Part shown: positions 21,949 through 35,053 of the stretch, in pieces
How the letters are laid out: every line of letters starts with the position of its first letter
Position numbering within the stretch: position 1 is the stretch's first letter
NCBI GenBank assembly: GCA_021789435.1
Contig: JAJYJO010000001.1
Location: 58,674 to 122,673 of the forward strand
Source: Chloroflexota bacterium
GTDB taxonomy: Bacteria; Chloroflexota; Limnocylindria; Limnocylindrales; CSP1-4
Reading direction: 5' to 3'
Length of the DNA stretch: 64,000 bases
Notes under the pieces: model-generated
Databases searched by the model: none
The model's input: the letters and a program-made list of their open reading frames with translations, nothing else
Told to the model about the DNA's origin: nothing
Position numbers and translations under genes: made by a program

Positions 21949-22698
21949 ATGCCGGCGCTCGGCGTCGTCCTGCTCTCCCAGTCGCTGGGCCTGCTGCTGG
22001 TGGCGGCCGCGGCGGTCGCGGTGGGGGAGCCGATCCGCTCGGCCGCCGAGCTCGGCTGGGGGATGGCGGCCGGCCTGTCGGGCGCCACCGCCCTGGTGGC
22101 CTTCTACCGCGGTCTCGCCGCCGGGCGGATGGGTCTCGTCGCGCCCGTCGCGGGCGTCCTGGGCGCGGCGATCCCGGTCGCCTTCGGGACGCTCGTCGAA
22201 GGCGCTCCGGCACCCGGCCAGGCCGCCGGCATCGGACTGGCCCTCGTCTCGGTGCTGCTGGTCTCGCGGCCCGACGAGGAGGGTGGCGGCCGGCAGGGGC
22301 TCGGCCTGGCGCTTGCGGCCGGGGCCGGCTTCGGCGGCTTCTTCGTGCTGATCGACCAGGTCGGCACGGCGGGCGTCCTCTGGCCGATCGCCGCCGCCAG
22401 GTTCGCCTCAGTGGGCCTGCTCGGCGGCCTGGTCCTCGTGCTGCGGCCGCCCTGGCGGCCCACGCCGGGGACGCTCCGACCGGTCGTCCTGGCGGGGGTC
22501 CTCGACGCCGGCGGCAACCTGCTCTTCCTGCTGGCCGCCCGCCTCGGCCCGCTCGCGGTGGCGGCCGTCCTCTCGTCGCTCTATCCGGTGACCACCGTGG
22601 TCCTGGCGCGCCTGGTGCTCGGCGAGCGCGTCGCCCGCGTCCACGCCGCGGGGATCGCCCTGGCGGTGGTCGCCATTGCTCTGATCGCCGCGGCGTGA
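21949..22698 (+). CDS. EamA/DMT-family transporter (N-terminus probably incomplete as called)
   Basis: About 9 TM helices. The expected first helix (LGGVGLGLGSALSWGAADFNGGLASRR) is encoded in frame upstream (21862-21948) with no ATG/GTG/TTG. Confidence 0.65.
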   Translation: MPALGVVLLSQSLGLLLVAAAAVAVGEPIRSAAELGWGMAAGLSGATALVAFYRGLAAGRMGLVAPVAGVLGAAIPVAFGTLVEGAPAPGQAAGIGLALVSVLLVSRPDEEGGGRQGLGLALAAGAGFGGFFVLIDQVGTAGVLWPIAAARFASVGLLGGLVLVLRPPWRPTPGTLRPVVLAGVLDAGGNLLFLLAARLGPLAVAAVLSSLYPVTTVVLARLVLGERVARVHAAGIALAVVAIALIAAA

Positions 22699-22769
22699 CG
22701 AAGCGTGGAGCGGGCTCCCGCCGCGGCTGGCGGGCCCGGGCGGCGGCCGCGGTCGGCTAGGCTTGGCTG

Positions 22770-24083
22770 ATGCGCCTGCCGTCCGGTCCGACGGAGAGCG
22801 ACCCGGCGGACCCATCTCCGGTACTCCCCACGCCACCGCGCCCGCGGGCCACGCCGCCGGCTCCTGCCGAGGACTGGCGGCGCCTGCTCGTCCTCTACTG
22901 GGTGACCGCGTTCGTCGAGGGCCTGGGGATGAACCAGGTCTTCGCCTTCCTGCCGCTTCGCCTGGAGGGGATGGCCATGGCCCCCGGCGAGATCCCCCAC
23001 TTCGTCGGGCTCTTCAGCGCCCTGATCTTCGTCTTCGGGCTGCCGGTCGTGCCGCTATGGGGCGTCTGGGCCGACAAGTACAGCCGCAAGGCGGTCATCA
23101 TCCGGAGCTCACTGATCGAGGCCGTGGTCTTCGCGGCGGTCGGGCTGAGCCAGGCGCCTTGGCAGCTGGCCCTGAGCCTGCTGCTGGTGGGATTCCAGCT
23201 CGGCAACACCGGGGTCATGCTGGCGGCTCTGCGCGACGCGACGCCGCTGCCACGGGTCGGCACGGCGATCGCCGTCTTCGGGGCGGCCAGCCCGATCGGG
23301 TTCGCCCTCGGCCCGGCCCTCGGCGGGCTCCTGACCGACGGCCTCCACGCTCCCCTGGCGGCGGTCTTCCTGCTCTCGAGCGCGCTCTCGCTCGCCGTGG
23401 CCGCGCTGGTCGGCCTCGGCTCGCGCGAGGTGCGCCCGGAAGTGGTGCCGGAGGGCCGCGTCCTGGAGCTCGCCTACGGGGCGGTGCGGGGAGTCTTCAC
23501 CGATCCGCGCGTCCGGTGGGTTTTCGTCATCTTCGGGACGGCCTACCTGGCGCGGCAGATGTCGAACCCGTACGTCCCGATCCTGGCCCTCCACGTGCCG
23601 GCCGACGGCGTGGGGCAGGCGACGGCGATCGCCATCGTGACCGGGGTGGCGGCGCTGGCCGGCGCCGCGGTCTCGCCGCTGGCCGGCGGCCTGGGCGACC
23701 GGATCGGCTTCCGGCCCGTCCTGACCGGCGCGCTGCTGTTCGGCGGCGCGGCGCTGGCCACGATGGCCCTGGTGCCGAGCCTGGTGGCGCTCGCCCTGGC
23801 GGCGACGGCCTACGCCGCGTTCGCGGCGGCGATCCAGGCGATGGTCTTCGGGCTGCTGGCGACGGAGGTCCCGGCCGAGCGCCGCTCGGCGACGCTCAAC
23901 CTCGTCCTGCTGCCGCTCTACCTGGCCGGCATCGTCGGGCCGCTGATCGGAGCGATCGTCGTCAGCTTCGGCGAGGTGGCGGTCTTCGGGCTGGCCGGCC
24001 TGGTCCTCTGGCTCGGCGCAGCCGCGGTGCTGCGGTCGCCGGCGCAGGCCGGGACCCGAAGCGCCGAGGCCGCCGGGGGCTGA
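22770..24083 (+). CDS. MFS transporter
   Basis: 437 aa with 12 predicted TM helices and MFS signature regions (GLFSALIFVFGLPVVPLWGVWADKYSRK, ...). Confidence 0.8.
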   Translation: MRLPSGPTESDPADPSPVLPTPPRPRATPPAPAEDWRRLLVLYWVTAFVEGLGMNQVFAFLPLRLEGMAMAPGEIPHFVGLFSALIFVFGLPVVPLWGVWADKYSRKAVIIRSSLIEAVVFAAVGLSQAPWQLALSLLLVGFQLGNTGVMLAALRDATPLPRVGTAIAVFGAASPIGFALGPALGGLLTDGLHAPLAAVFLLSSALSLAVAALVGLGSREVRPEVVPEGRVLELAYGAVRGVFTDPRVRWVFVIFGTAYLARQMSNPYVPILALHVPADGVGQATAIAIVTGVAALAGAAVSPLAGGLGDRIGFRPVLTGALLFGGAALATMALVPSLVALALAATAYAAFAAAIQAMVFGLLATEVPAERRSATLNLVLLPLYLAGIVGPLIGAIVVSFGEVAVFGLAGLVLWLGAAAVLRSPAQAGTRSAEAAGG

Positions 24084-24657: not shown

Positions 24658-25112
24658 TCAGGCCGGCGCCCGTTCCGAGGCACGGCGAAGGGCGGCCTCC
24701 AGGAGGTCGGCGTCGGCGTCGCCCAGCTCGTGCACGTTGCCCTGGAAGGCAAGCGTCCAGTGCTCCGGCGGCCAGCGCCGCGCGTACTCCATCTGGCGCG
24801 CGAGCGGCTCGGCCGGGACCGCTCGTGACGGCTCGAGCGCGACCAGCGGCTCCGTCGGGAAGCGCCAGGGGTAGTCCTCCTCGGGATGCGAATCCGAGGT
24901 CCAGAGGGTTCGTGGGACTCGAACGGGGAGCCCGTCACGCGCAGGGCGGCCGCGACCGCCTTCTGCCCGGTGACGTACAGGAAGACGCGATCGCCGGGCG
25001 CCACGCGCTCCCACTTCCGACGGTGCCGGCGTTTCATCCCGGCCCGGGTCCAGCCGATCCGGGCGGTCTTCTCGAGGTTCTCCGGGGAGCTCACGAGCAG
25101 CCAGTTGGTCAT
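24658..25112 (-). pseudogene. PUA/EVE-like hypothetical protein, apparently frameshifted near 24900-24945
   Basis: N-terminal frame: MTNWLLVSSPENLEKTARIGW...VFLYVTGQKAVAAALRVTGSPFESHEP (ATG 25112, GGAG upstream). It continues in a second frame: RTLWTSDSHPEEDYPWRFPTEPLVALEP...HWTLAFQGNVHEL...* ending at 24658. Confidence 0.45.
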
Positions 25113-25299
25113 CGGGACACTCCGGCCTGGGGGGACGCCTGCCGGCAGAGGGTAGCGCTCGAGCGACCGAGACGCAGCGCGTCCAGCCGCAGGCGGCCGG
25201 TCGGCAGCCTGCCGTCCCGGCCGGGCTTCTGCGACAATCCCGCTCCAGAGGAATGCGGCCGGGGCAGCCTCCGCCCCGGCCCACGAGGAGCCGTCCGCC

Positions 25300-26721
25300 A
25301 TGTTCACCCGGGGCCGCTGGCTGGTCGTCCTGGTGCCGATCGTCTTCCTGGCCTTCGTCGAGGCCCTGAGCGATTCGGCCCTGGATGCCCTGCTGCCGTT
25401 CCCGCGCGATACGATCCTGGTCACGGCGCTGGTGACCCTGGTCGGCATCTTCGCGGCGCGCTGGTCCTTTCGGACGATCGACGCCCTGACCGTCGACCTG
25501 CGCAACCGCAACCGCGAGCTGGAGCAGACGAGCGAGACCCTCCGGGGCCTCCATCAGCTGAGCGTGGTCGTCAGCGAGACGGTCGAGATGGACGACGTCC
25601 TCCGCGAGATCGTGGAGGCGGGGCGACAGCTGCTCGCGGCCGACGCGGTCCTGCTGGTCCTGGATCGGCCCGAGGGCCCCCTGCTGGCGGCGACGAGCGG
25701 GCCGCCCGAGGCCTTCCTGCCGGCGGGCGACGGCGGGGATGACGACGTCGGCCGGTTCCTTGCCCGGCCCTTCCGGGCCGCCCCGCTGGTGGCGCCGGTC
25801 CAGCGCGGCGACCGGCGGCTGGGCCGGCTGGCCGCCGTCCGGCGGACCCCGACTGCCTTCGAGCCCGGCAGCGCGGAGACACTCTCCTCGCTTGCCAACA
25901 CGGCCGGCATCGCCCTGGAGAACGCCCGACTCCAGGAGGGCCTGCGCGCGCTGGCGATCGCCGCCGAGCGGGAGCGGATCGCGCGCGAGATGCACGACGG
26001 CCTGGCCCAGGTGCTCGGCTACGTCAACACGAAATCCCAGGCCGTGGAGGAGCTCCTGGGCCGGGGAAGGGTGGACGAGGCACAGGCCCAGCTCGATGAG
26101 CTCGCCCAGGCCGCGCGCTCCGTCTACGTCGATGTGCGGGAGGCGATCCTGGGCCTCTCCAGCCCGATCTCGCCGGAGGCGGGCCTGGCGGGGGCCCTGG
26201 AGGACTACGTGGCCCGGTTCGCCGATGCCTCGAAGCTGGCTGCCCGCGTGACCGCCAGCCCGGCGGCTCGGGCCGTGGAGCTGGGCCCGGCCGCGGAGGC
26301 CCAGGTCTTCCGCATCGTCCAGGAGGCTCTCACCAACGTCCGCAAACACGCCGCCGCGAACCGCGTGGGGGTGGACCTGGAGGCCCGCGACGCGGCGCTG
26401 GTGGTGACCGTGGCCGACGACGGCCGGGGGTTCGATCCGGAGAAGGCGGGCCTGGGCGGCTGGCCCGCCTTCGGGTTGCGGGGGATGCGCGACCGGGCGG
26501 CCTCCATCGGCGCGCGGATCGAGTGGGAGAGCGTGCCGGGCACCGGCAGCACGCTCCGCCTCTGGGTGCCGACGGGCCCGGCCGGCGCTTCGCCGGCGCC
26601 CCCGGTCGGTGCCTCGGCGACCCCGGTCGGCGGCCCCGGGACGCCGGACGGGGAATCGGACCGCCCGGTCGCCGAACCGGCCACATCTTCCGACCCGCGC
26701 GGTGGTAGCGTGTTGGCCTGA
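25300..26721 (+). CDS. Sensor histidine kinase (N-terminal TM helix, GAF-like sensor, HisKA_3 + HATPase; NarX/DevS class)
   Basis: H-box ERERIAREMHDGLAQ; N/G boxes (VQEALTNVRKHA, VADDGRGFD, GLRGMRDRAASIGARIEW). The stop overlaps the start of the response regulator. Confidence 0.85.
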   Translation: MFTRGRWLVVLVPIVFLAFVEALSDSALDALLPFPRDTILVTALVTLVGIFAARWSFRTIDALTVDLRNRNRELEQTSETLRGLHQLSVVVSETVEMDDVLREIVEAGRQLLAADAVLLVLDRPEGPLLAATSGPPEAFLPAGDGGDDDVGRFLARPFRAAPLVAPVQRGDRRLGRLAAVRRTPTAFEPGSAETLSSLANTAGIALENARLQEGLRALAIAAERERIAREMHDGLAQVLGYVNTKSQAVEELLGRGRVDEAQAQLDELAQAARSVYVDVREAILGLSSPISPEAGLAGALEDYVARFADASKLAARVTASPAARAVELGPAAEAQVFRIVQEALTNVRKHAAANRVGVDLEARDAALVVTVADDGRGFDPEKAGLGGWPAFGLRGMRDRAASIGARIEWESVPGTGSTLRLWVPTGPAGASPAPPVGASATPVGGPGTPDGESDRPVAEPATSSDPRGGSVLA

Positions 26722-27383
26722 TGCGCATCGTGCTCGTCGACGACCACACCCTCTTCCGGGACGGCGTTGCCTCGCTGCTCGCGGCCTGGGGCCACGACGT
26801 GGTCGGCCAGGCGGCCGACGGGGCCCAGGCCGTGGACCTCGTCGACGAGGTCCAGCCGGACCTGGTCCTGATGGACGTCCGGATGCCCGGGGTGTCGGGG
26901 CTGGAGGCCACGGCCCGGATCAAGGAGCGCCACCCGGCCGTGGCGATCGTCATGCTGACCGTCAGCGAGGACGAGGACGACCTGTTCCGGGCGATCAAGG
27001 CGGGGGCCCAGGGCTACCTCCTCAAGAACCTCGAGTCGGGCCAGCTGCGCTCGATGCTGGAGGCCGTCTCGCGCGGCGAGGCGGCCATCTCACCGGCCAC
27101 CGCGGCCCGGATCATCGACGAGTTCCTGCGGGCCGGCCGCAGCCCCGCCCGCAACGAGCCCGAGCGGCTCACCGACCGGGAGATCGAGGTCCTCCGCCTG
27201 GTCACCCAGGGTCTCCGCAACAAGGAGATCGCGGCCCGCCTGGGCATCAGCGAGAACACCGCCAAGTTCCACCTCAAGAACATCGTCGAGAAGCTGCACG
27301 CCCAGAGCCGGACCGAGCTGGCCGCCCGGGCTGTGCGCGAGGGCCTGGTCCCCGAGATCGAGCCGGACGGCCGGTCGCGCTGA
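26721..27383 (+). CDS. NarL/FixJ-family response regulator (receiver + LuxR-type HTH)
   Basis: MRIVLVDDHTLFRDG...LVLMDVRMPG... receiver; LTDREIEVLRLVTQGLRNKEIAARLGISENTAKFHLKNI HTH. Confidence 0.9.
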   Translation: MRIVLVDDHTLFRDGVASLLAAWGHDVVGQAADGAQAVDLVDEVQPDLVLMDVRMPGVSGLEATARIKERHPAVAIVMLTVSEDEDDLFRAIKAGAQGYLLKNLESGQLRSMLEAVSRGEAAISPATAARIIDEFLRAGRSPARNEPERLTDREIEVLRLVTQGLRNKEIAARLGISENTAKFHLKNIVEKLHAQSRTELAARAVREGLVPEIEPDGRSR

Positions 27384-27586
27384 TCGCGCCGGCGGCGGCT
27401 TCCCCGGCCCCGGCTCTGGCCGCGCCCCGATCGCCCCGGCCGCGGATCGCCGCTCGTGCCCTCCGCCCGCGGATCGCGCCGATCGTCGCGGCCGCGGGCC
27501 GGCCACCCGGCACCTGAACCTTCGCTCAGGGCCCGCCTACCCGTTGTGATGGCCGGTTCGGTCCCGGCCGGCCCCCCGGTCGCCTA

Positions 27587-27598
27587 CCCCCTCGAGGG
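27587..27598. promoter_or_regulatory. Perfect 12-bp palindrome CCCCTCGAGGGG in the 300-bp leader of the oxidoreductase operon
   Basis: Seen directly; about 85 nt upstream of the ATG at 27683. Possible operator. Confidence 0.3.
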
Positions 27599-27682
27599 GC
27601 GGGCTTCGCGCCCCATGGCAGGTTGCGCCGGCGGCCCCTGGTCGGATGCTAGGCAGCGCCGAGGAAGCATCGGAGGCTGTCG

Positions 27683-29671
27683 ATGGGTTATCGCATCTCG
27701 ATCGATCGAGGAGGCTGCATCAACTGCGGCGTCTGCATGGACGTCTGCCCGGTGCAGGCGCTCGACATGTCGCGCCCGGATCGGCCGGGCGTGGAGACCG
27801 GCGCGGCCGGTGGCACCCCGTTCCGCTGGATGATGGAGTACCCACTCCAGGTCGGCGAGTGCATCGGCTGCGGCATCTGCGTCCGCGAGTGCCCGACGGT
27901 CGTGATGAGCCTGGACGGCGTCGCCGGGGAGACCCAACTCGCGCCGCGCCAGGGTCCGATCACCTTCCCGGAGCCGGCGGGGCAGACGGGCTGGCAGCCG
28001 CTCTCGGCCGTCACGCGTGAGGCCCTCAAGGCCGACCATCCCTCCCCGTTCGAGCCCCTGTTCGTGTGGCGGACCAGCGAGCGCCCGCGGCCGTGGCAGG
28101 TCTGGCGGACGATGGAAGACGCTCCCGCCGATCCGAAAGCCCCCTGCCAGGCGGCCTGCCCGGCGGGCACCGACGCGGGCCGCTACGTCGGCCTGATCGC
28201 CCAGGGCCGCTACGACGAAGCCTACGCCGTCTCGGCGGAGGTCAATCCGTTCCCCTCCGTCTGCGGCTGGATCTGCACCGCCCCCTGCGAGTCGGCCTGC
28301 CGGCGCGGGACCCTGGACGAGCCCATCTCGATCCGGACGCTCAAGCGGTTCGCGACCGAGCGCGGCCGGCTGCCGGCGATCCCCCTGCCGCCGCTGAAGC
28401 GGACCGAGCGGGTGGCGATCGTCGGCGGCGGGCCGGCCGGCATGGCCGCCGCCTACTACCTCGCCCGCCTGGGCTACCCGGTGACGGTATTCGAGGCGAT
28501 GCCGGTGCCCGGCGGCATGATGGCGATCGGAATCCCCGAGTACCGCCTGCCGCGCGAGATCCTGCGCGACGAGATCGACCGCATCCTCCGCCTGGGAGTG
28601 GACCTCCGGCTCGACGCGGCGATGGGCCGCGACTTCACCCTGAGCGACCTGGAGGCCGAGGGCTTCAAGGCCGTCTTCCTGGCCACCGGCGCCTCCAAGA
28701 GTCGCCGGCTGGGCGTGCCGGGCGACGACGCGAAGGGCGTGATCCCGGCGACGTACTTCCTCAAGCAGGTGAACCTGGGCGAGAACCCCCGGCTCACCGG
28801 TCCGGCCGTCGTCGTCGGTGGCGGCTCGACGGCCATGGATGCCGCCCGCTCGGCGCTCCGCAGCGGCGCCAGCCCGGTGACCATCCTCTACCGCCGCGGC
28901 CGGGACGACATGCCCGCCCAGGCGGAGGAGGTCGAGGCCGCCGAGCGCGAGGGCATCCAGATCGAGACGGGCATCGTGGTCACGCAGGTCCTGGCCCGCG
29001 ACGGGGCGGTGGTCGCCGTCCGCTGCGAGCGCCAGCGCTCCACCGGCCGCTTCGAGAACGGCCGGACGGTCTGGGCCCCGATCCCCGGCAGCGAGACCGA
29101 GCTGGCCGTGGCCACCGTCCTGGTGGCGGTCGGCGAGGAGCCCGATCCCTCGATCCTGCCCGAGGGTGCCGGGATCGGCGTCACCGCCTTCGCGGGCGTG
29201 GCCGCCGATCCGCGCAGCCTGGCGACGGGTCGACCCGGCGTCTTCGCCGGTGGCGATGTTGTCACCGGGCCCAAGACGATCATCGACGCGGTCGCCGCGG
29301 GCCGGCGAGCCGCCGGCTCGGTCCACGAGTACCTCTCGGGGGCGCGCGACGGCGAGGCCGAGATCATGGCCGCCGTCCGCTTCCCCACCCCGCGGGAACG
29401 GCAGCTCCGGCTGGACCTGGCGACCCGGGCGCGGTCCCACGCGCCCCTGCCCGTCTACCAGCCGGGCTCGTTCAGGGCGGAACAGGAGGGCTTCGACGAG
29501 GCGGCGGCACGAGCCGAGGCCTCGCGATGCTTCCGCTGCGATGCGGTCTACAGCTGTCCGTCCGTCCAGGTCGTCGCCGGCCGCGGTCCGCGCGAGCAGG
29601 CGGCCATCCCGCCCATCCCGTCCCCGGCGTCCCACCCCGCGGCGCCGTTCACTGCAGGAGGTCAACGATGA
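27683..29671 (+). CDS. 2x[4Fe-4S] ferredoxin domain fused to a GltD-like NAD(P)H-dependent FAD oxidoreductase (AegA/YgfT/SudA-like)
   Basis: CINCGVCMDVCP and CIGCGICVRECP ferredoxin motifs. GltD-type cluster region CQAACPAGTDAGRY...NPFPSVCGWICTAPCESAC. Dinucleotide fold VAIVGGGPAGMAAAYYLARLGYPVTVFEA and a second VVVGGGSTAMDAARSA. GGAGG RBS. Confidence 0.85.
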   Translation: MGYRISIDRGGCINCGVCMDVCPVQALDMSRPDRPGVETGAAGGTPFRWMMEYPLQVGECIGCGICVRECPTVVMSLDGVAGETQLAPRQGPITFPEPAGQTGWQPLSAVTREALKADHPSPFEPLFVWRTSERPRPWQVWRTMEDAPADPKAPCQAACPAGTDAGRYVGLIAQGRYDEAYAVSAEVNPFPSVCGWICTAPCESACRRGTLDEPISIRTLKRFATERGRLPAIPLPPLKRTERVAIVGGGPAGMAAAYYLARLGYPVTVFEAMPVPGGMMAIGIPEYRLPREILRDEIDRILRLGVDLRLDAAMGRDFTLSDLEAEGFKAVFLATGASKSRRLGVPGDDAKGVIPATYFLKQVNLGENPRLTGPAVVVGGGSTAMDAARSALRSGASPVTILYRRGRDDMPAQAEEVEAAEREGIQIETGIVVTQVLARDGAVVAVRCERQRSTGRFENGRTVWAPIPGSETELAVATVLVAVGEEPDPSILPEGAGIGVTAFAGVAADPRSLATGRPGVFAGGDVVTGPKTIIDAVAAGRRAAGSVHEYLSGARDGEAEIMAAVRFPTPRERQLRLDLATRARSHAPLPVYQPGSFRAEQEGFDEAAARAEASRCFRCDAVYSCPSVQVVAGRGPREQAAIPPIPSPASHPAAPFTAGGQR

Positions 29672-30288
29672 CGCCCGACCAGGTCTCCGGGCTGTTCGCC
29701 GCCGGCGAGGCGTTCGTGGAAGGAACGATCGCCGCCGCGCTGGTGGTGCTCTGGCTGCTGGCCCTTGCGCTGCACATCGCCCGCCCCTACATGGTCGCGA
29801 ACCTGCGCAAGTTCACCCTGCGGCTCGGTGCCGACCTATGGTGGATCATCTACGTGGGCCTGCGGGACGTGCTGCTGCTCCAGGTCTTCCTCGGCAGCTT
29901 CATCTTCTTCTACCCCGACGTGGTCAAGGCCAAGGATCTGCCGATCACGGGCGGCCTGGCCGCCGTCGCGGCCTTCGCGGTCCTCGTCATCAAGCTGACC
30001 ACGCGGGGCGACGCCGACCTCCGCTGGTACCGCATCCAGTCGCTCCTGCTCGGGCTCGGCGCCACCCTCTACATCGCGCCCTACCTGCTGGGCGTCCAGG
30101 TCAACCAGCTCGGCAACTCCAGCGCGAGCACCCTGGCCTCGATCCTCGACAGCTCGCTGAACACGACCTGGTCGCTGCCGCTCTGCTACGTCTCGGCGGG
30201 CCTGGTCGGCCTGCTCGGCCTTTACGCCGTCGCCTACAACCTGCGCCAGACCACCGTCCGCCGGCCCGTCCGCGGCCAGGCTCAGTAA
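29668..30288 (+). CDS. 5-TM membrane protein, paralog A (unknown family), start overlapping the oxidoreductase stop (ATGA)
   Basis: GGAGG RBS. Helices IAAALVVLWLLALALHIA, LWWIIYVGLRDVLLLQVFLGSFIFF, LAAVAAFAVLVIKL, SLLLGLGATLYIAPYLLGV, YVSAGLVGLLGLYAVAY. Confidence 0.7.
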   Translation: MTPDQVSGLFAAGEAFVEGTIAAALVVLWLLALALHIARPYMVANLRKFTLRLGADLWWIIYVGLRDVLLLQVFLGSFIFFYPDVVKAKDLPITGGLAAVAAFAVLVIKLTTRGDADLRWYRIQSLLLGLGATLYIAPYLLGVQVNQLGNSSASTLASILDSSLNTTWSLPLCYVSAGLVGLLGLYAVAYNLRQTTVRRPVRGQAQ

Positions 30289-30301
30289 GGAGAGCTGACC
30301 G

Positions 30302-30997
30302 ATGCCGACTCCCACGCCCCTCAACGCCGACAGCCTGGCGACCGCGCTGACCCAGGGCGGCGCCGGCTGGATGGTCCTGTCCGTGGCGGCCGTGCTGCCG
30401 ATCCTGTGGGCCTTCACCCTCAGCCTGCACTTCGCCCGGCCGTACGTGATCCGCTTCCTCCAGACGCTCACCCTCCGCTTCGGCGGCGACGTCTGGTGGC
30501 TGAGCTACGTCCTGATCCGGGACGGGCTGATGATGATCACCCTCGCGCTCAGCATGATCTTCCTGATGCCGAACCTGTATATCGGGGTCGGGCTGCCGAT
30601 CACGGCGCCGCTGTCGACGGTCATCCTCTTCTGGGCGCTGGCCATCAAGCTGGTCCGCGACAGCGACGACGACCCGGCGGCCTTCCGGCTGATCTCGATC
30701 CTGCTGGTGGTCTCCTCGATCCTCTACATCGTCCCCCAGATCTACGGCCTGGAGGCCGCCGACCAGACGGTCATCTGGAACAACGCCACCGGCCTCGGCT
30801 GGATCCCGGGTGTCCTCAGCTCCTTCAACGGCGACTGGGTCAATCCCTGGGCCTGGCCGATCCTCGACGTCTCGCTGGTCCTCTTCGCGCTGACCGGCGG
30901 CGGCCTGTTCGTCCGCTTCCTGCTCAACCTGGGCCAGGAGGAGGCGTCGTCCGGCTCCAGCGTCGACACCAGCGAGCAGCTGCCGGTCGCCCGCTGA
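30302..30997 (+). CDS. 5-TM membrane protein, paralog B (same unknown family)
   Basis: AAGGAGAG RBS. LHFARPYVIRFLQTLTLRFGGDVWWLSYVLIRD parallels LHIARPYMVANLRKFTLRLGADLWWIIYVGLRD of paralog A. Confidence 0.7.
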   Translation: MPTPTPLNADSLATALTQGGAGWMVLSVAAVLPILWAFTLSLHFARPYVIRFLQTLTLRFGGDVWWLSYVLIRDGLMMITLALSMIFLMPNLYIGVGLPITAPLSTVILFWALAIKLVRDSDDDPAAFRLISILLVVSSILYIVPQIYGLEAADQTVIWNNATGLGWIPGVLSSFNGDWVNPWAWPILDVSLVLFALTGGGLFVRFLLNLGQEEASSGSSVDTSEQLPVAR

Positions 30998-31233
30998 GGT
31001 AGCCGAGGGCTCGTACGCCCGAATCACCCGCCCCCGCTGCCGGCCTCCCACCCGGGCCGGAGCCAATCGTGCTGGGGGACCGGAGGCCCCGTCGCTTCGG
31101 CGGCGGGGTCTCCGCTTGCGCCCGCGGGACGGCGGCCCTGGTGGTCGGATGGCTGCGACATGTGGGCGCGACCTTCGCGACCGCGACCGAGTTCGTCGGC
31201 CCCAGGCGCGGCCGCCGGGGCGGGCGAGCAGGC

Positions 31234-32166
31234 TCAGCGCGGGATGCGGGCAGCCGCCGCCTCATCCACGATCCAGGTCGCGCCACGGCGGCGGGCCCGC
31301 TGGGCCGGCCAGCGCCGCTCGTCGCGAACGGGCCCGAAGACGCCGGCCAGGGCCGCCGCCTTGCCGGGCCCCGCGGTGATGGCGATGAGCGCCCGAGCCG
31401 CGTCCAGGACGGCCGGGTTCAGGGTGACGCGCGGCAGGTGCGGTCCGACGTGCGTCGGCGCGGCGATCCCCAGGGTCCAGCGGTCGGACTCCAGGGCCCG
31501 ACTGCCCGGGAAGCAGGAGAGGACGTGGCCGTCCTCGCCGACGCCCACGATGACCAGGTCGAAGATCGGCCAGCCGGCGGGATCCACGGGCAGGGCCGCG
31601 GCCATCTCCCGGGCGTACTGCTCGGCGCACCAGTCGGCATCGCGTCCCTCGCCGATGGCCTGCAGGGTGGGCCAGGGATGGAGGTTGGCGGCGGGGAGCG
31701 GCGCCCCCATCTGCGCCGTGGCCGCGTCCACCCCGGGCGGGCCGTCCAGGTCGGAGCCGTCGGCGCCGTCGCCGGCCTGGCCGGACCGCGCGCCCGCCCG
31801 CAGGAGCACCTGGTCGAGCGGCAGGACGTTGGAGTCGGGGTGGTCGCGCGGGACGAAGCGGTCGTCGCCCCACCAGACCTGGATCCGGTCCCACGGGAGG
31901 CGGTCGCGCAGCGGCGGGGCGGCCAAACGGCGGTAGATCGCGATGGGTGAGGATCCGCCGGTCGTGGCGAAGTGGGCGGTGCCCCGCTCGCGGGCGGCGC
32001 GCTCCAGGGTCGCGGCGATCCGCTCGCCGGCGGCCGCCGCCACTGCGTCGGGAGACGGCAGCACCAGCAGCTCGGGCTCGCCGCGCTCCGCCCGGTCGAC
32101 CGCCTCCGGCGGCACGGCCGCGCCGCGGGGGACGGCCCCGCCGGGCGGGTCGGATCCATTGCTCAC
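31234..32166 (-). CDS. pgl: 6-phosphogluconolactonase
   Basis: ...HFATTGGSSP...DLVIVGVGEDGHVLSCFPGS...WIVDEAAA are the DevB/Pgl family motifs. Its start overlaps the opcA stop. The true start may be internal. Confidence 0.8.
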   Translation of the reverse strand: MSNGSDPPGGAVPRGAAVPPEAVDRAERGEPELLVLPSPDAVAAAAGERIAATLERAARERGTAHFATTGGSSPIAIYRRLAAPPLRDRLPWDRIQVWWGDDRFVPRDHPDSNVLPLDQVLLRAGARSGQAGDGADGSDLDGPPGVDAATAQMGAPLPAANLHPWPTLQAIGEGRDADWCAEQYAREMAAALPVDPAGWPIFDLVIVGVGEDGHVLSCFPGSRALESDRWTLGIAAPTHVGPHLPRVTLNPAVLDAARALIAITAGPGKAAALAGVFGPVRDERRWPAQRARRRGATWIVDEAAAARIPR

Positions 32167-33485
32167 CCTGCACCTCCGGGTTGGATCGCGTCCGCCACCG
32201 CCGGGCGCGGCTCGCCCGTCGTCCGGGGGCCGCCCTTCGCGAGTGCCGCCGCCAGGCGGAGCGTGGCGGCGCCGATCGCGTCGTGCCCGACCGCCTCGAT
32301 CACCTGCGAGAGGAGGTCCACCTCCCGCTGCCGGGGCGCCAGGAACGAGCGAGCCAGGAGCTCTCGGCCGTCCTCCAGGATGCGCACGTCGACCGTCTCA
32401 TCGCCGGCCGTCACGTCGCCCACGAGGGTGGTGCCGCGCCGCCGGGCAACCAGCTCGACCCGGAGTGTGGTGCCGCCCGGCCGGGACGAGCGGACCGGCC
32501 GCAGCGAAACCTCGACCGTCCCGCCAGGTCGCCGCAGGCGGGCGCGCCGGCCTCCCTCGGGGACGGACCGGAGCGGCTCGGCGACCGTCATCCCCAGGCG
32601 CGAGGCCAGCCAGGCCACGTGGTAGACCGGCTTGACCACGTTCGTCCGCCTCGCCGTGTCGGCATCGTCCGCCGCCGCGTAGTCCACGCTGATGGCGCGG
32701 ATCGAGCCGAGGTAGGGCTGCAGCTCCGGCCGGTCGAAAACGGAGGCGAGCGCCTCGCGCCAGCGGGCCTGGCGGATCAGCCCGAAGTCCGCGATGTCGT
32801 TCCCCAGGCGGCCCGCCACGTGGGCCATCTCGACCAGCCGGTCCAGGCCGTCGCCGGCCCAGGCCGAGCCGTCCACGATCAGCCGGTCGACCATCGGCAG
32901 GAGCTCGCGCGCCGGGTGCGAGCGGAAGCTCGGGTCGGAGGGCCACCAGAGGAGGACCGGCAGGTCGTGGATCAGGAGGGGCACGATGATCGCCGCCAGG
33001 TGCCGGCCCGACTCCCCGCCGGCGGTCACGAAGATCATCTCGGCGCACGTCTCGGCCACGCCCGGGGCCGGCAGGACGCAGTGGGCCTCGATCTGGGCGT
33101 CGAGCCAGGCCGGCCCGTCCGGGTCGGCCGCGGTCAGGATCAGCGAGCGCGACGGATGGCGGCCGGCCATCTGGGTGATCGTCGCCGCGGCGTGGACGCC
33201 GGTCTCCGGCCGGCCGGCGACCACGACCAGGTTCAGGACGCTGGTCCGCGCCGCGACGTGGCGCTCCCCGCTGGCGCCGATGACCTCCGCCAGGGCCGGC
33301 GCCGACCAGATCCGGCCGAGCTCGCGCTGGATCCCGTCGACGGTCCGGGCCCGCGACGACCAGCGCTGGACCGGCCGGCCGAAGACGGCCTCGTCGGTCT
33401 GCCGCAGCGCCCCGACGAGGTCCGCAACGGACTGCCGCGGGCCGGTCGCCGGGGCGCCGGCCGCCCTCCTCAGATCCTTCGCCAC
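32163..33485 (-). CDS. opcA: Glucose-6-phosphate dehydrogenase assembly protein OpcA
   Basis: 440 aa from a GTG (VAKDL...); ...SRSLILTAADPDGPAWLDAQIEAHCVL...IIVPLLIHDLPVLLWWPSDP... is typical OpcA. It overlaps the zwf 3' end by 16 nt. The upstream half of the 857-aa maximal ORF is antisense to zwf. Confidence 0.8.
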   Translation of the reverse strand: MAKDLRRAAGAPATGPRQSVADLVGALRQTDEAVFGRPVQRWSSRARTVDGIQRELGRIWSAPALAEVIGASGERHVAARTSVLNLVVVAGRPETGVHAAATITQMAGRHPSRSLILTAADPDGPAWLDAQIEAHCVLPAPGVAETCAEMIFVTAGGESGRHLAAIIVPLLIHDLPVLLWWPSDPSFRSHPARELLPMVDRLIVDGSAWAGDGLDRLVEMAHVAGRLGNDIADFGLIRQARWREALASVFDRPELQPYLGSIRAISVDYAAADDADTARRTNVVKPVYHVAWLASRLGMTVAEPLRSVPEGGRRARLRRPGGTVEVSLRPVRSSRPGGTTLRVELVARRRGTTLVGDVTAGDETVDVRILEDGRELLARSFLAPRQREVDLLSQVIEAVGHDAIGAATLRLAAALAKGGPRTTGEPRPAVADAIQPGGAG

Positions 33486-35053
33486 CGTCGTCCGTCGCGT
33501 GCCGGCAGGTCGTCGGCCGCCTCCGGTCCCCAGCTGCCGGCGGCGTAGTTGGGGAAGTCGGGCGCTCCCATGGCCGCCCACGCCTCGATGATCGGGGTCA
33601 CGATCCCCCAGGCCTCCTCCACTTCGTCCGCCCGGGTGAAGAGCGAAGCGTCGCCGAGGAGGGCATCCAGGATCAGGGTCTCGTAGGCGTCGGGGGAGCC
33701 CACGACGAACGTCGAGCCGTAGGTGAAGTCCATGTTCACCGAGCGCACGTCCAGCCCCAGGCCGGGGACCTTGGCGGCGAACCGCAGCAGGATCCCCTCG
33801 TCCGGCTGGATCCGCATCGCCAGCAGGTTCGGGTCCGGCTCGGACGAGGAGTCCCGGAAGAGGCGGTGGGGGACTTCCTTGAACTGGACCGCGATCTCGG
33901 TGGCCCGCTTCGGCAGGCGCTTGCCGGTCCGCAGGTAGAAGGGGACGCCACCCCAGCGCCAGTCGTCGACGGCCAGGCGCGCCGCCACATACGTCTCGGT
34001 CTCCGAGAGGGGGTCGACCTCCGGCTCCTCGCGGTAGCCCGCAACCGGCTGGGCATCGACCCAGCCCGGCCCGTACTGCCCGCGCACGATGAGGCGCCGA
34101 ACGTCCTCCGGGGAGAAGCGGGTGACGGCCCGCAGGACCTTGACCTTCTCGTCGCGCAGGGAATTCGCCTCGAAGGCCGCCGGGGGCTCCATCGCCACCA
34201 GCGTCAGCAGCTGGAGCAGGTGGTTCTGGAGGATGTCCCGGATCGCCCCGGTCTCCTCGTAGAAGGCGCCCCGGCTCTCGACGCCGATCGACTCGGCCAC
34301 CGTGATCTGCACGTGGTCCACGTAGCGCCGGTTCCAGATCGGCTCGAAGATGCCGTTGCCGAACCGGAAGACGAGGAGGTTGCGGACCGTCTCCTTGCCC
34401 AGGTAGTGGTCGATGCGGTAGACCTGCGACTCGCGGAAGACCTTGCCGACCTCGCGGTTGAGGCGGGTCGCCGACTCCAGGTCGCGGCCGAACGGCTTCT
34501 CGACGATGACCCGCCGCCAGCCTGCGCCGTGGACCTCGTGGTCCAGGCCGACCCGCCCGAGCTGGCGGACCACCTCGGTCACCTGCGACGGCTGCGTCGC
34601 CAGGTAGTAGAGGCGGTTGCCCTGCGTGCCGCGCTCGCGGTCCAGCGCATCCAGGCGTTCGCCCAGGGCGTCGTATCCGGCGTCGTCGGAGAAGTCGAGC
34701 TGCTGGTAGCAGATCCGCCCGGCGAACGCCGCCCAAGCCGTCGCGTCGAGCGGCTGGACCCGGGCGAAGCGCTCCAGGGCGCTCCGCACCTCGTCCCGGA
34801 ACGTGGCGTCGGAGTACGGGCGGCGGGCCACCGCCAGCACGGTGAATTCCTGCGGCAGCAGGTTCGACCGCCAGAGCTGGTAGAGCGCCGGGAGGACCTT
34901 CCGGTGGGCGAGGTCGCCCGTGGCCCCGAAGAGGACGAATGCGCTCGGGTCCGGCACGCGCTCGAGGCGGAGGCCCTCGCGCAGCGGGTTCGGGAACCGG
35001 CTCCGGGGGGGTCGCCGGCGGGCGCCGCGCCTGGTCTCGCGCAGCTCCCGCAT
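33470..35053 (-). CDS. zwf: Glucose-6-phosphate 1-dehydrogenase
   Basis: FVLFGATGDLAHRK, RIDHYLGKE, EKPFG, and near-colinear with mycobacterial Zwf, including the NPLR N-terminal extension. Confidence 0.92.
   Translation of the reverse strand: MRELRETRRGARRRPPRSRFPNPLREGLRLERVPDPSAFVLFGATGDLAHRKVLPALYQLWRSNLLPQEFTVLAVARRPYSDATFRDEVRSALERFARVQPLDATAWAAFAGRICYQQLDFSDDAGYDALGERLDALDRERGTQGNRLYYLATQPSQVTEVVRQLGRVGLDHEVHGAGWRRVIVEKPFGRDLESATRLNREVGKVFRESQVYRIDHYLGKETVRNLLVFRFGNGIFEPIWNRRYVDHVQITVAESIGVESRGAFYEETGAIRDILQNHLLQLLTLVAMEPPAAFEANSLRDEKVKVLRAVTRFSPEDVRRLIVRGQYGPGWVDAQPVAGYREEPEVDPLSETETYVAARLAVDDWRWGGVPFYLRTGKRLPKRATEIAVQFKEVPHRLFRDSSSEPDPNLLAMRIQPDEGILLRFAAKVPGLGLDVRSVNMDFTYGSTFVVGSPDAYETLILDALLGDASLFTRADEVEEAWGIVTPIIEAWAAMGAPDFPNYAAGSWGPEAADDLPARDGRRWRRI

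What the first reader, a model, noticed from the sequence alone, without database searches (positions are those of the whole stretch)
29668..30997. Tandem paralogous membrane proteins with conserved LH(I/F)ARPY...LR(L/F)G(A/G)D(L/V)WW motif
The two adjacent ORFs share clear collinear similarity: LHIARPYMVANLRKFTLRLGADLWWIIYVGLRD against LHFARPYVIRFLQTLTLRFGGDVWWLSYVLIRD. The conserved charged residues (R-P-Y, R-x-G-x-D, R-D) sit at helix ends, suggesting functional sites. An old tandem duplication forming a heterodimeric membrane unit is plausible.
Basis: seen in the sequence. Interest (0 to 1): 0.55.

Follow-up and report, generated by a model that had tools for sequence, protein, structure and literature searches.

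The report
Paired membrane partners of a ferredoxin module
The two adjacent genes are true ancient duplicates of an undescribed five-helix membrane protein family that, in both bacteria and archaea, always sits beside a dedicated iron-sulfur ferredoxin, so they probably form the membrane half of a previously unrecognised electron-transfer complex.

Summary
ORF A (29668-30288, 206 aa) and ORF B (30302-30997, 231 aa) are collinear paralogues: 34% identity over 186 aa, E=5e-29, z=23-33 against shuffles. Both AlphaFold models are confident (pLDDT 87 and 91) and show the same five-TM, N-out/C-in helix pattern. Neither protein matches any Pfam or NCBIfam model, any PDB sequence, or any PDB fold.

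The family is small: 276 clusters at 50% identity among 1.84 billion representatives. It occurs in Limnocylindria (Chloroflexota), a few other bacteria, and archaea (Nitrososphaerota, Micrarchaeota, Marsarchaeota).

In all 80 Limnocylindria species loci fetched, and in all 11 other loci examined, a specific 2x[4Fe-4S] ferredoxin module lies next to the family member or members. In this window that module is the N-terminus of the upstream, translationally coupled 662-aa GltD/NfnB-like NAD(P)H flavoprotein.

Single-copy and tandem versions both exist, and the duplication happened at least twice. No His, Cys or Met is conserved family-wide, so the LH histidine is unlikely to be a universal heme ligand.

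Best reading (inferred, not shown): A and B form a heterodimeric membrane module that docks the ferredoxin domain and links NAD(P)H oxidation to a membrane acceptor, most likely menaquinone.

The parts
25300..26721 (+). Sensor histidine kinase (GAF + HisKA_3 + HATPase_c). The start codon is uncertain. It is the likely regulator of the cassette.
   Evidence: Pfam hits. Only sub-threshold NarQ/NarX/MctS-type matches. An orthologous kinase lies directly upstream in about 56 of the 80 Limnocylindria loci, and a kinase fragment plus response regulator also precede the module in bacterial locus L094.
26721..27383 (+). NarL/LuxR-type response regulator (Response_reg + GerE).
   Evidence: Pfam hits. 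NarL-family similarity, below the equivalog cut-off. It is 60-88% identical across loci and sits directly upstream of the cassette.
27683..29671 (+). 662-aa Fe-S flavoprotein ('FLAV'). It has an N-terminal 2x[4Fe-4S] ferredoxin module, a GltD/NfnB-like Fer4_20 domain, a Pyr_redox_2 FAD/NAD(P)H domain, and a C-terminal Cys616-x2-Cys619-x5-Cys625 tail.
   Evidence: Pfam and NCBIfam hits. PDB sequence matches for residues 145-626 to the GltD/NfnB-like parts of 9bov_A (6e-105), 9n5u_A NfnA (5e-100) and 8oh5_C StnC (5e-92). Cys positions. The role of this module as an NADPH-FAD-2x[4Fe-4S] electron input is described in PMC10482914.
27683..28132 (+). Ferredoxin module (FLAV residues 1-150). It carries CINCGVCMDVCP and CIGCGICVRECP plus a conserved extension (RQGP ... 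W.PLS..T ... PF/PW ... WQVWR). It is the universal partner of the membrane family.
   Evidence: Stand-alone ferredoxins next to archaeal family members match this region specifically: 43% identity over 99 aa (E=2e-25), 34% over 159 aa (E=3e-25), and 36% over 162 aa (E=3e-21).
29656..29671 (+). AGGAGG Shine-Dalgarno sequence (29656-29661) and an ATGA overlap (29668-29671) in which the FLAV stop overlaps the ORF A start. This indicates translational coupling.
   Evidence: Read directly from the sequence. FLAV and A also abut or overlap in the related loci.
29668..30288 (+). Paralogue A: a 206-aa membrane protein with five TM helices, N-terminus outside and C-terminus inside.
   Evidence: Translation. 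AlphaFold2 model with pLDDT 86.6 and pTM 0.79; helices 3-37, 39-46, 52-81, 83-88, 95-111, 118-146, 151-160, 166-195. K+R count is 11 in the inside loops against 2 in the outside loops. 1837 homologues, all unnamed.
29770..29868 (+). Core motif of A (residues 35-67): LHIARPYMVANLRKFTLRLGADLWWIIYVGLRD.
   Evidence: Family-wide invariant or near-invariant residues are R39, Y41, L51, R52, D56, W58, W59, R66 and D67.
30289..30292 (+). GGAG Shine-Dalgarno sequence, 9 nt upstream of the ORF B start, within the 13-nt A-B spacer.
   Evidence: Read directly from the sequence.
30302..30997 (+). Paralogue B: a 231-aa membrane protein with the same helix pattern as A and a longer outside loop between TM4 and TM5.
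   Evidence: Translation. AlphaFold2 model with pLDDT 90.8 and pTM 0.84; helices 9-44, 46-55, 59-88, 90-95, 102-118, 125-163, 184-209. 1624 homologues, all unnamed.
30425..30523 (+). Core motif of B (residues 42-74): LHFARPYVIRFLQTLTLRFGGDVWWLSYVLIRD.

Best explanation
ORF A and ORF B are anciently duplicated members of an undescribed five-TM membrane-protein family. They are the two membrane subunits, most likely a heterodimer, of a three-gene operon (FLAV-A-B).

FLAV is a cytoplasmic protein with an NAD(P)H/FAD site and four predicted [4Fe-4S] clusters. Its N-terminal 2x[4Fe-4S] ferredoxin module is the family's universal partner.

Proposed mechanism:
- NAD(P)H reduces the FAD of the GltD/NfnB-like domain.
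- Electrons pass through its two [4Fe-4S] clusters to the two clusters of the ferredoxin module.
- That module docks on the cytoplasmic face of A/B, which is formed by the conserved loop 1 (R-x-Y ... LR(L/F)G(A/G)D-x-WW) and loop 3 (K-L ... D-x-D).
- From there electrons reach a lipid-soluble acceptor, most likely menaquinone, bound in the membrane dimer.
- Overall, the complex would be a new type of NAD(P)H:quinone oxidoreductase, or ferredoxin:quinone oxidoreductase in lineages where the ferredoxin is a separate protein. The direction of electron flow is not established.

Shown: the paralogy, the shared predicted helix pattern and topology, the absence of any known relative, the conserved three-gene cassette, the cross-domain linkage to one specific ferredoxin module, and the cofactor motifs of FLAV.

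Inferred: the heterodimer, the docking surface, electron transfer into the membrane, and quinone as the partner.
For: Paralogy: E=5e-29 and z=23-33. The two AlphaFold models have the same helix pattern.

Operon: there is an ATGA overlap between FLAV and A, and a 13-nt spacer with a GGAG between A and B. FLAV-A-B is present in 80 of 80 Limnocylindria species loci wherever the contig allows, at 60-83% identity, while the flanking genes change.

Partner: every other context examined has a Fer4 gene touching the family member. This covers L087, L089, L090, L092, L093, L094, L095, L096, L097 and L098. These ferredoxins are specific homologues of FLAV residues 1-160, including the non-cluster extension. 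Gene order varies: the ferredoxin can lie upstream, between the paralogues, or downstream. That pattern argues for selection on a protein-protein partnership.

FLAV: residues 145-626 match the NADPH/FAD/2x[4Fe-4S] GltD-like modules of solved NfnB/StnC-type proteins. In StnC this module feeds electrons from NADPH into an Fe-S chain (PMC10482914).

Topology: members with a signal peptide and an extracytoplasmic N-terminal domain (P0259, P0264, P0284, P0292), together with the K+R bias, place loop 1, loop 3 and the C-terminus in the cytoplasm, where the ferredoxin is.

Conserved residues: the family-wide set (R39, Y41, R52, D56, W58, W59, R66, D67, D115) is rich in Arg, Tyr, Asp and Trp. From general knowledge of respiratory enzymes, these residue types line quinone sites in succinate:quinone reductase, complex I and PsrC.

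Subfunctionalisation: A keeps the ancestral (archaeal-like) KF(T/S)LRLGAD loop and E18/T20. B keeps the ancestral Glu at the outer end of TM4 (E151), plus P103 and A112. Duplication occurred independently in bacteria and in an archaeal clade. Both points fit a homodimer that became an asymmetric heterodimer.
Against: There is no biochemical or structural evidence. The A+B+ferredoxin complex could not be modelled.

No recognised quinone-binding signature or known quinone-site fold was detected. Foldseek found nothing with E<0.2.

The invariant R66-D67 pair inside TM2, and the conserved Glu at the outer end of TM4 in B and in archaeal members, are not needed for a cytoplasm-side quinone site. 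They hint at ion or proton movement, or at another substrate.

Some bacterial members carry extracytoplasmic His/Asp/Glu-rich or Ig-like N-terminal extensions. One archaeal locus has a multicopper oxidase immediately downstream. A simple quinone reductase model does not explain these.

Whether all host lineages, for example Micrarchaeota, possess quinones was not tested.
Confidence: 0.45

Rival explanations
1. Passive membrane anchor. A/B only tether the ferredoxin or flavoprotein to the membrane, for example to localise NAD(P)H- or ferredoxin-dependent chemistry. They do not take part in electron transfer themselves.
For: No redox-ligand residue (His, Cys or Met) is conserved across the family. 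The linkage to the ferredoxin is strict.
Against: A simple tether would not need invariant Arg, Tyr, Asp and Trp residues held across Bacteria and Archaea, an intramembrane R-D pair, or five TM helices in two specialised paralogues. In most lineages the partner is only a small 2x[4Fe-4S] ferredoxin with no catalytic domain to localise.
Confidence: 0.2
2. Redox-coupled or redox-gated ion, proton or metal translocator. The five-TM dimer moves an ion or metal across the membrane, and the ferredoxin module drives or regulates this. Alternatively, the membrane potential drives reverse electron flow to ferredoxin or NADP+.
For: The R66-D67 pair is invariant inside TM2. Charged residues are conserved at both membrane faces, with E151 of B and the archaeal Glu being 100% conserved. 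Some members have extracytoplasmic His/Asp/Glu-rich N-terminal segments (P0269, P0284, P0292) or Ig-like ones (P0259, P0264). A multicopper oxidase lies directly downstream in L093.
Against: There is no similarity to any transporter or ion-pump family or fold. The extensions and the copper-oxidase neighbour are lineage-specific, not family-wide. No second redox partner that would make coupling thermodynamically meaningful is evident in the ferredoxin-only loci.
Confidence: 0.15
3. Di-subunit cytochrome b. His36 of A and His43 of B together ligate a heme b at the dimer interface, as SdhC/SdhD do, giving a heme-containing anchor.
For: There is one His at the cytoplasmic end of TM1 in each paralogue, 86% (A) and 92% (B) conserved within Limnocylindria. 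The paralogous-pair architecture recalls SdhC/SdhD.
Against: The position is Q, Y, L, F or T in many bacterial A-type and B-type members and Q in the archaeal clade. No other His is conserved. There is no Pfam cytochrome-b hit and no fold match.
Confidence: 0.07
4. The similarity is only generic transmembrane composition, and the two ORFs are unrelated or not real genes.
For: None beyond the prior that hydrophobic proteins align spuriously.
Against: E=5e-29 with compositional adjustment. z=23 even against local shuffles. There are thousands of conserved orthologues of each ORF, and both AlphaFold models are confident and share a helix pattern.
Confidence: 0.01

Closest known systems
SdhC/SdhD (and FrdC/FrdD) membrane anchors of succinate:quinone oxidoreductases
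   Same: Both are pairs of small paralogous hydrophobic subunits thought to descend from a single ancestral anchor, and single-subunit anchors also exist. Both dock a cytoplasmic Fe-S subunit and, in the model proposed here, provide the quinone site next to the last cluster. This comparison rests on established knowledge of complex II.
   Different: Here each subunit has five TM helices, not three. There is no family-wide His heme ligand. No Pfam, PDB-sequence or Foldseek relationship was found. The Fe-S partner is a 2x[4Fe-4S] ferredoxin, not SdhB.
NrfD/PsrC-type subunits of complex iron-sulfur molybdoenzyme systems, with their NrfC/PsrB four-cluster partners
   Same: Both are cofactor-less integral membrane subunits whose job is to dock a ferredoxin-type Fe-S protein and exchange electrons with the quinone pool.
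   Different: NrfD/PsrC proteins have 8-10 TM helices and a different fold, and the Fe-S partner is usually periplasmic (Tat-exported). There was no HMM or structural match here.
NarI/HdrE/DsrM-type five-TM cytochromes b
   Same: They share the number of TM helices and the N-out/C-in orientation. They serve as membrane partners of cytoplasmic Fe-S proteins (NarH, HdrD, DsrK).
   Different: Those proteins bind two hemes b through four conserved His residues. This family has no conserved His, no Pfam hit and no fold match.
GltD / NfnB / StnC-type NAD(P)H-FAD-2x[4Fe-4S] input modules (this applies to the upstream FLAV, not to A/B)
   Same: FLAV residues 145-626 align end to end with these modules at E values of 1e-92 to 1e-105. 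The Fer4_20 and Pyr_redox_2 domains are present. In StnC the module passes NADPH electrons into an Fe-S wire (PMC10482914).
   Different: FLAV carries an extra N-terminal 2x[4Fe-4S] ferredoxin module and is encoded with two membrane subunits. It scores below the curated cut-offs of all named NCBIfam equivalogs; the best is PRK12771 at 464 bits against a cut-off of 516. No membrane-bound member of this group turned up in the literature searched.
NuoI (complex I 2x[4Fe-4S] subunit), the weak best match of the stand-alone partner ferredoxins
   Same: It is a two-cluster ferredoxin fold with an insertion between the cluster motifs, and it sits on a membrane subunit in complex I. The top NCBIfam hits of the archaeal partners are NuoI models.
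   Different: All scores are far below the cut-offs (36-44 bits against 113-135). The conserved C-terminal extension (RQGP ... PW ... W.VW) is not a NuoI feature. No other Nuo genes are adjacent.

Membership tests
Undescribed five-TM family defined here (the A/B family) | Core motif R-x-Y-(x9-11)-L-R-(L/F/V)-(G/A)-(A/G)-D-x-W-W-(x6)-R-D spanning the TM1/TM2 junction, plus an acidic D-x-D loop after TM3. | tested here: met
   Present in both A and B. It is invariant or near-invariant across 148 diverse members.
Undescribed five-TM family defined here (the A/B family) | An adjacent gene or domain encodes the dedicated 2x[4Fe-4S] ferredoxin module with its C-terminal extension. | tested here: met
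   In the window, FLAV residues 1-150 lie directly upstream. The same linkage holds in 80 of 80 Limnocylindria loci and 11 of 11 other loci.
SdhC/SdhD-type anchors (Pfam Sdh_cyt / CybS) | Three TM helices per subunit, with a match to the family HMM. | tested here: not met
   The proteins have five TM helices. Pfam gave no hit at E<=1, and no SQR chain was found by profile or Foldseek search.
SdhC/SdhD-type anchors (Pfam Sdh_cyt / CybS) | A conserved axial His heme b ligand in each subunit (heme-containing types). | tested here: not met
   The only candidate (H36 in A, H43 in B) is replaced by Q, Y, L, F or T in many members.
NarI/HdrE/DsrM cytochrome b (Pfam Nitrate_red_gam) | Four conserved His residues binding two hemes b, with an HMM match. 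| tested here: not met
   No His is conserved family-wide. There was no Pfam hit and no fold match.
NrfD/PsrC family (Pfam NrfD) | 8-10 TM helices and an HMM match. | tested here: not met
   Five TM helices, and no Pfam, NCBIfam or PDB match.
GltD/NfnB-like NAD(P)H oxidoreductase module (FLAV only) | A Fer4_20 domain with Cys ligands for two [4Fe-4S] clusters, followed by a Pyr_redox_2 FAD/NAD(P)H domain. | tested here: met
   Fer4_20 at 2e-16 and Pyr_redox_2 at 1.5e-35. Cys155, 159, 194, 198, 202 and 206, plus Cys616, 619 and 625. PDB homologues at 1e-72 to 1e-105.
GltD/NfnB-like NAD(P)H oxidoreductase module (FLAV only) | Actual binding of FAD and NAD(P)H, and the nucleotide specificity. | not testable with these tools
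   This can only be inferred from homology.
Clostridial-type 2x[4Fe-4S] ferredoxin (partner module) | Two C-x2-C-x2-C-x3-C-P motifs. | tested here: met
   CINCGVCMDVCP at residues 12-23 and CIGCGICVRECP at residues 60-71. Fer4 family hits.

The most novel reading that the evidence does not exclude
The five-TM protein, as a homodimer or as an A/B heterodimer, together with its dedicated 2x[4Fe-4S] ferredoxin would be a previously unrecognised, minimal, cofactor-less membrane module. It would connect the low-potential ferredoxin/NAD(P)H pool to the quinone pool, and possibly couple this to proton or ion movement through the intramembrane R-D pair and the outer Glu. It would be shared by Chloroflexota (Limnocylindria), some other bacteria, and archaea (Nitrososphaerota, Micrarchaeota, Marsarchaeota). 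That would make it a new class of respiratory ferredoxin/NAD(P)H:quinone oxidoreductase, unrelated in sequence and fold to complex I, NDH-2, Rnf, Nqr or any known anchor.
Probability: 0.3. Interest if true: 0.85.

Novelty: new variant of a known kind. Interest (0 to 1): 0.62.

Why it matters
Limnocylindria are abundant soil and freshwater Chloroflexota with almost no experimentally studied physiology. The archaeal hosts are likewise uncultured or barely studied.

If the inference holds, it identifies the membrane module of a new, very simple electron-input enzyme. The module has no detectable relative among solved structures or curated families. It would give a concrete candidate for how ferredoxin or NADPH is coupled to the membrane in organisms where this link is unclear.

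Three conserved genes with a clear cofactor chain, or two genes in archaea, make this directly testable by heterologous expression.

Independent of function, the family is a clean example of a homodimer repeatedly turning into an asymmetric heterodimer by tandem duplication.

Tried and rejected
1. Heme hypothesis (bis-His heme at the A/B interface through the 'LH' histidines). I considered it first (note 1). I downgraded it because the His is not conserved outside Limnocylindria and no other His, Cys or Met is conserved.

2. Family assignment. Pfam and NCBIfam at E<=1 gave nothing for A or B. A profile search of all PDB sequences gave nothing meaningful. Foldseek of both models against the PDB gave a best E of 0.24 and TM-scores of 0.34 or less.

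3. Complex modelling. The heterodimer and the docking therefore remain untested.

4. Apparent long 'fusion' proteins (P0244, P0321, P0360, P0370, P0375, P0241, P0072). On reading the sequences, these are frameshifted or read-through gene calls, not real fusions.

5. Promoter and terminator consensus scans of 25000-31400 found nothing. This is uninformative in a 75% GC genome.

6. Rfam and tRNA scans of the whole window found nothing.

7. Literature searches for Limnocylindria plus ferredoxin, glutamate synthase, NADPH or respiration; for ferredoxin-quinone oxidoreductase in archaea; for Micrarchaeota ferredoxin and quinone; and for membrane-bound NfnB. None described this cassette.

8. Cluster look-up for taxon names of the non-Limnocylindria bacterial members gave only 'hypothetical protein'.

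Full report
**1. Observation**

The window is about 75% GC. Its best protein matches come from Candidatus Limnocylindrales/Limnocylindria MAGs in the phylum Chloroflexota.

ORF A runs from 29668 to 30288 (206 aa) and ORF B from 30302 to 30997 (231 aa), both on the + strand. BLASTP of A against B gives 34% identity over 186 collinear residues, with E=5e-29. The Smith-Waterman score of 264 lies 33 SD above global shuffles. It lies 23 SD above shuffles restricted to 20-residue windows, which preserve the hydrophobicity profile. No further copy exists in the window.

**2. Anatomy**

AlphaFold2 with a 148-sequence alignment gives confident models for both proteins:
- A: pLDDT 86.6, pTM 0.79.
- B: pLDDT 90.8, pTM 0.84.

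The helix pattern is the same in both. A long N-terminal helix ends in TM1. A short helix follows directly after R-P-Y. Then come a 30-residue TM2 helix, TM3, TM4, a short outside helix, and TM5.

Hydropathy finds five TM segments in each protein. In A, K+R residues number 11 in loop 1, loop 3 and the C-terminus, against 2 in the N-terminus, loop 2 and loop 4. Some relatives carry a signal peptide followed by an extracytoplasmic domain in front of TM1: P0259 and P0264 (Ig-like), and P0269, P0284 and P0292 (His/Asp/Glu-rich). Together these data give an N-out/C-in topology.

That topology places the conserved R39-x-Y41, L51-R52-x-G-x-D56-x-W58-W59 and K109 ... D115-x-D117 on the cytoplasmic face. 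R66-D67 sit about ten residues into the TM2 helix.

**3. Family**

Neither protein hits Pfam or NCBIfam at E<=1. A family profile finds nothing in the PDB sequences. Foldseek of both models against the PDB gives no match better than E=0.24 or TM-score 0.34.

A profile search of 1.84 billion representative proteins returns only 276 clusters at E<=1e-3. A scan of 185,579 species-representative genomes finds 501 encoding stretches, and the best 80 are all Limnocylindria.

A distant clade is archaeal. Sources name its members as Nitrososphaerota/Thaumarchaeota, Micrarchaeota/Micrarchaeales and Marsarchaeota.

Residues at least 90% conserved in all three groups (A-type, B-type and archaeal) are G13, A38, R39, Y41, L51, R52, D56, W58, W59, R66, D67, P83, P92, L110 and D115. 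No His, Cys or Met is among them. The 'LH' histidine is Q, Y, L, F or T in many members.

**4. Genomic context, the main new result**

The gene upstream of A (27683-29671, 662 aa) ends in an ATGA overlap with the start of A. B follows A after 13 nt that contain a GGAG.

The upstream protein, called FLAV here, contains:
- Two C-x2-C-x2-C-x3-CP motifs at residues 12-23 and 60-71.
- A Fer4_20 domain.
- A Pyr_redox_2 FAD/NAD(P)H domain.

FLAV residues 145-626 align with the GltD/NfnB-like parts of solved proteins: 9bov_A at 6e-105, 9n5u_A at 5e-100, 8oh5_C (StnC) at 5e-92, and NfnI large subunit 5jca_L at 1e-71. In StnC this module binds NADPH, FAD and two [4Fe-4S] clusters and feeds an Fe-S chain (PMC10482914).

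A tblastn survey of the 80 Limnocylindria loci shows FLAV, then A, then B in every locus where the contig allows. Identities are 61-80% for FLAV, 63-83% for A and 60-79% for B. A GAF-HisKA_3 kinase and a NarL-type regulator lie directly upstream in about 56 of these loci. The outer flanks differ between loci, so the cassette itself is the conserved unit.

Outside Limnocylindria, every locus examined has a small Fer4 protein touching the family member:

| Locus | Source | Arrangement |
|---|---|---|
| L087 | Nitrososphaerota | membrane gene, then ferredoxin |
| L089 | Micrarchaeota | membrane gene, then ferredoxin |
| L090 | archaeal | two tandem membrane paralogues, then ferredoxin |
| L093 | 31% GC archaeon | membrane gene, then ferredoxin |
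| L095 | not named | membrane gene, then ferredoxin |
| L098 | hydrothermal vent metagenome | membrane gene, then ferredoxin |
| L094 | 70% GC bacterium | kinase, regulator, membrane gene, ferredoxin |
| L092 | bacterial | ferredoxin, A-type, B-type |
| L096 | bacterial, SASP gene nearby | A-type fragment, ferredoxin, B-type |
| L097 | bacterial | FLAV, A, B |

These ferredoxins are not generic. They align with FLAV residues 1-160, including the inter-cluster insertion and the C-terminal extension (RQGP ... W.PLS..T ... PW ... W.VW). Identities are 34-43% with E values of 3e-21 to 2e-25. The evolutionarily conserved unit is therefore the membrane protein or proteins plus this ferredoxin module. 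Limnocylindria and L097 have fused the module to an NAD(P)H flavoprotein.

**5. Duplication history**

In an NJ tree, the bacterial sequences split into an A-type clade and a B-type clade. Each clade contains non-Limnocylindria members. The archaeal pair of L090 falls into two archaeal sub-clades, which indicates an independent duplication. The Nitrososphaerota clade is single-copy in the loci seen.

A and B have kept complementary ancestral states:
- A shares F49, L53, A55, E18 and T20 with the archaeal proteins.
- B shares E151 (outer end of TM4), P103, A112 and W23 with them.

Together with the translational coupling and strict co-occurrence, this is what one expects if an ancestral homodimer became an asymmetric heterodimer. 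It remains an inference.

**6. Mechanism**

Taken together, the shown facts are:
- A cytoplasmic NAD(P)H/FAD protein with four predicted [4Fe-4S] clusters.
- An obligatory association between its terminal ferredoxin module and a cofactor-less five-TM pair.
- Conserved polar and aromatic residues on the cytoplasmic membrane face.

The most economical reading is an electron path from NAD(P)H through FAD, two [4Fe-4S] clusters and then two more [4Fe-4S] clusters to a lipid-soluble acceptor held by A/B. That acceptor is most likely menaquinone. The basic, Trp-rich ferredoxin extension probably docks on the acidic D-x-D loop.

I put about 0.9 on 'membrane partner of the ferredoxin module' and about 0.45 on the complete quinone-reductase model.

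Some features are left unexplained and keep a transporter or pump reading alive. These are the intramembrane R66-D67 pair, the outer Glu, the lineage-specific extracytoplasmic His-rich or Ig-like extensions, and a multicopper oxidase next to the module in L093.

**7. Comparison with known systems**

Functionally, the nearest analogies are SdhC/SdhD, NrfD/PsrC and NarI/HdrE-type anchors. The defining features of each were tested and not met, including helix number, heme-ligand His residues, and HMM or fold matches. A/B are therefore not members of any of these families.

FLAV is a member of the GltD/NfnB-like group, but it scores below all curated equivalog cut-offs. No paper in the searchable library describes the cassette.

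**8. Verdict**

The thing found is an uncharacterised, cross-domain membrane family that partners with a dedicated ferredoxin. It is best classed as a new variant of a known kind, namely a membrane module of an Fe-S/flavin oxidoreductase, built on an unrelated fold. Interest is 0.62.

Noticed in passing
window 29528-29557 (FLAV Cys616, Cys619, Cys625), with 28145-28162 and 28262-28300: The GltD-like Fer4_20 region of FLAV has only six Cys (155, 159, 194, 198, 202, 206) for two [4Fe-4S] clusters. The 'EA.RC..C' half-motif that normally starts this domain sits instead at the extreme C-terminus (AEASRCFRCDAVYSC). It is also present in the L097 orthologue (AQRCLRCDVVTSC). The C-terminal tail, encoded just before ORF A, may fold back to complete a cluster.
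   Followed up: partly
window 31234-35053, minus strand: Immediately downstream and convergent lies an NADPH-generating pentose-phosphate cluster: 6-phosphogluconolactonase (31234-32166, Pfam Glucosamine_iso), then two ORFs I read by eye as OpcA-like and as glucose-6-phosphate dehydrogenase (33470-35053); the last two were not scanned. The adjacency to an NAD(P)H-oxidising cassette is suggestive, but it is not conserved in the related loci whose neighbouring genes were read (L001, L004).
   Followed up: partly
L093 7233-8324: In a 31% GC archaeal contig, the membrane-protein and ferredoxin pair is followed, with overlap, by a membrane-anchored multicopper oxidase (Cu-oxidase_3 at 6e-38, plus Cu-oxidase_2). 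This could hint at a link to copper or oxygen chemistry in that lineage.
   Followed up: no
P0259, P0264 (L092 73-1080), P0269, P0284, P0292 (L094 1257-2165): Some bacterial A-type members carry a signal peptide plus an extracytoplasmic N-terminal domain. It is either Ig-like (about 110 aa, no Pfam hit) or a His/Asp/Glu-rich low-complexity stretch (HADEAEDAHADE ...) that looks like a metal-binding segment. L092 also has an acidic, His-containing putative lipoprotein just downstream.
   Followed up: partly
P0244, P0321, P0360, P0370, P0375, P0241, P0072 (metagenome proteins): Several long database 'proteins' look like flavoprotein-membrane or A-B fusions. They are frameshifted or read-through gene calls on high-GC contigs: stretches of Arg/Pro/Gly-rich out-of-frame sequence join the real domains. 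They should not be taken as natural fusions.
   Followed up: yes
window 25300-27383 and L094 1-1118: A GAF-HisKA_3 kinase plus NarL-type regulator precedes the cassette in most Limnocylindria. A kinase fragment plus NarL-type regulator also precedes the module in an unrelated 70% GC bacterium, where the module is a single membrane gene plus a stand-alone ferredoxin. The regulatory pair may therefore travel with the module. Its signal is unknown.
   Followed up: partly
window 1-64000: There are no tRNA genes and no Rfam family at gathering threshold anywhere in the 64 kb. AT skew drops to -0.35 at 22001-24000, over the MFS transporter gene at 22770-24083.
   Followed up: no
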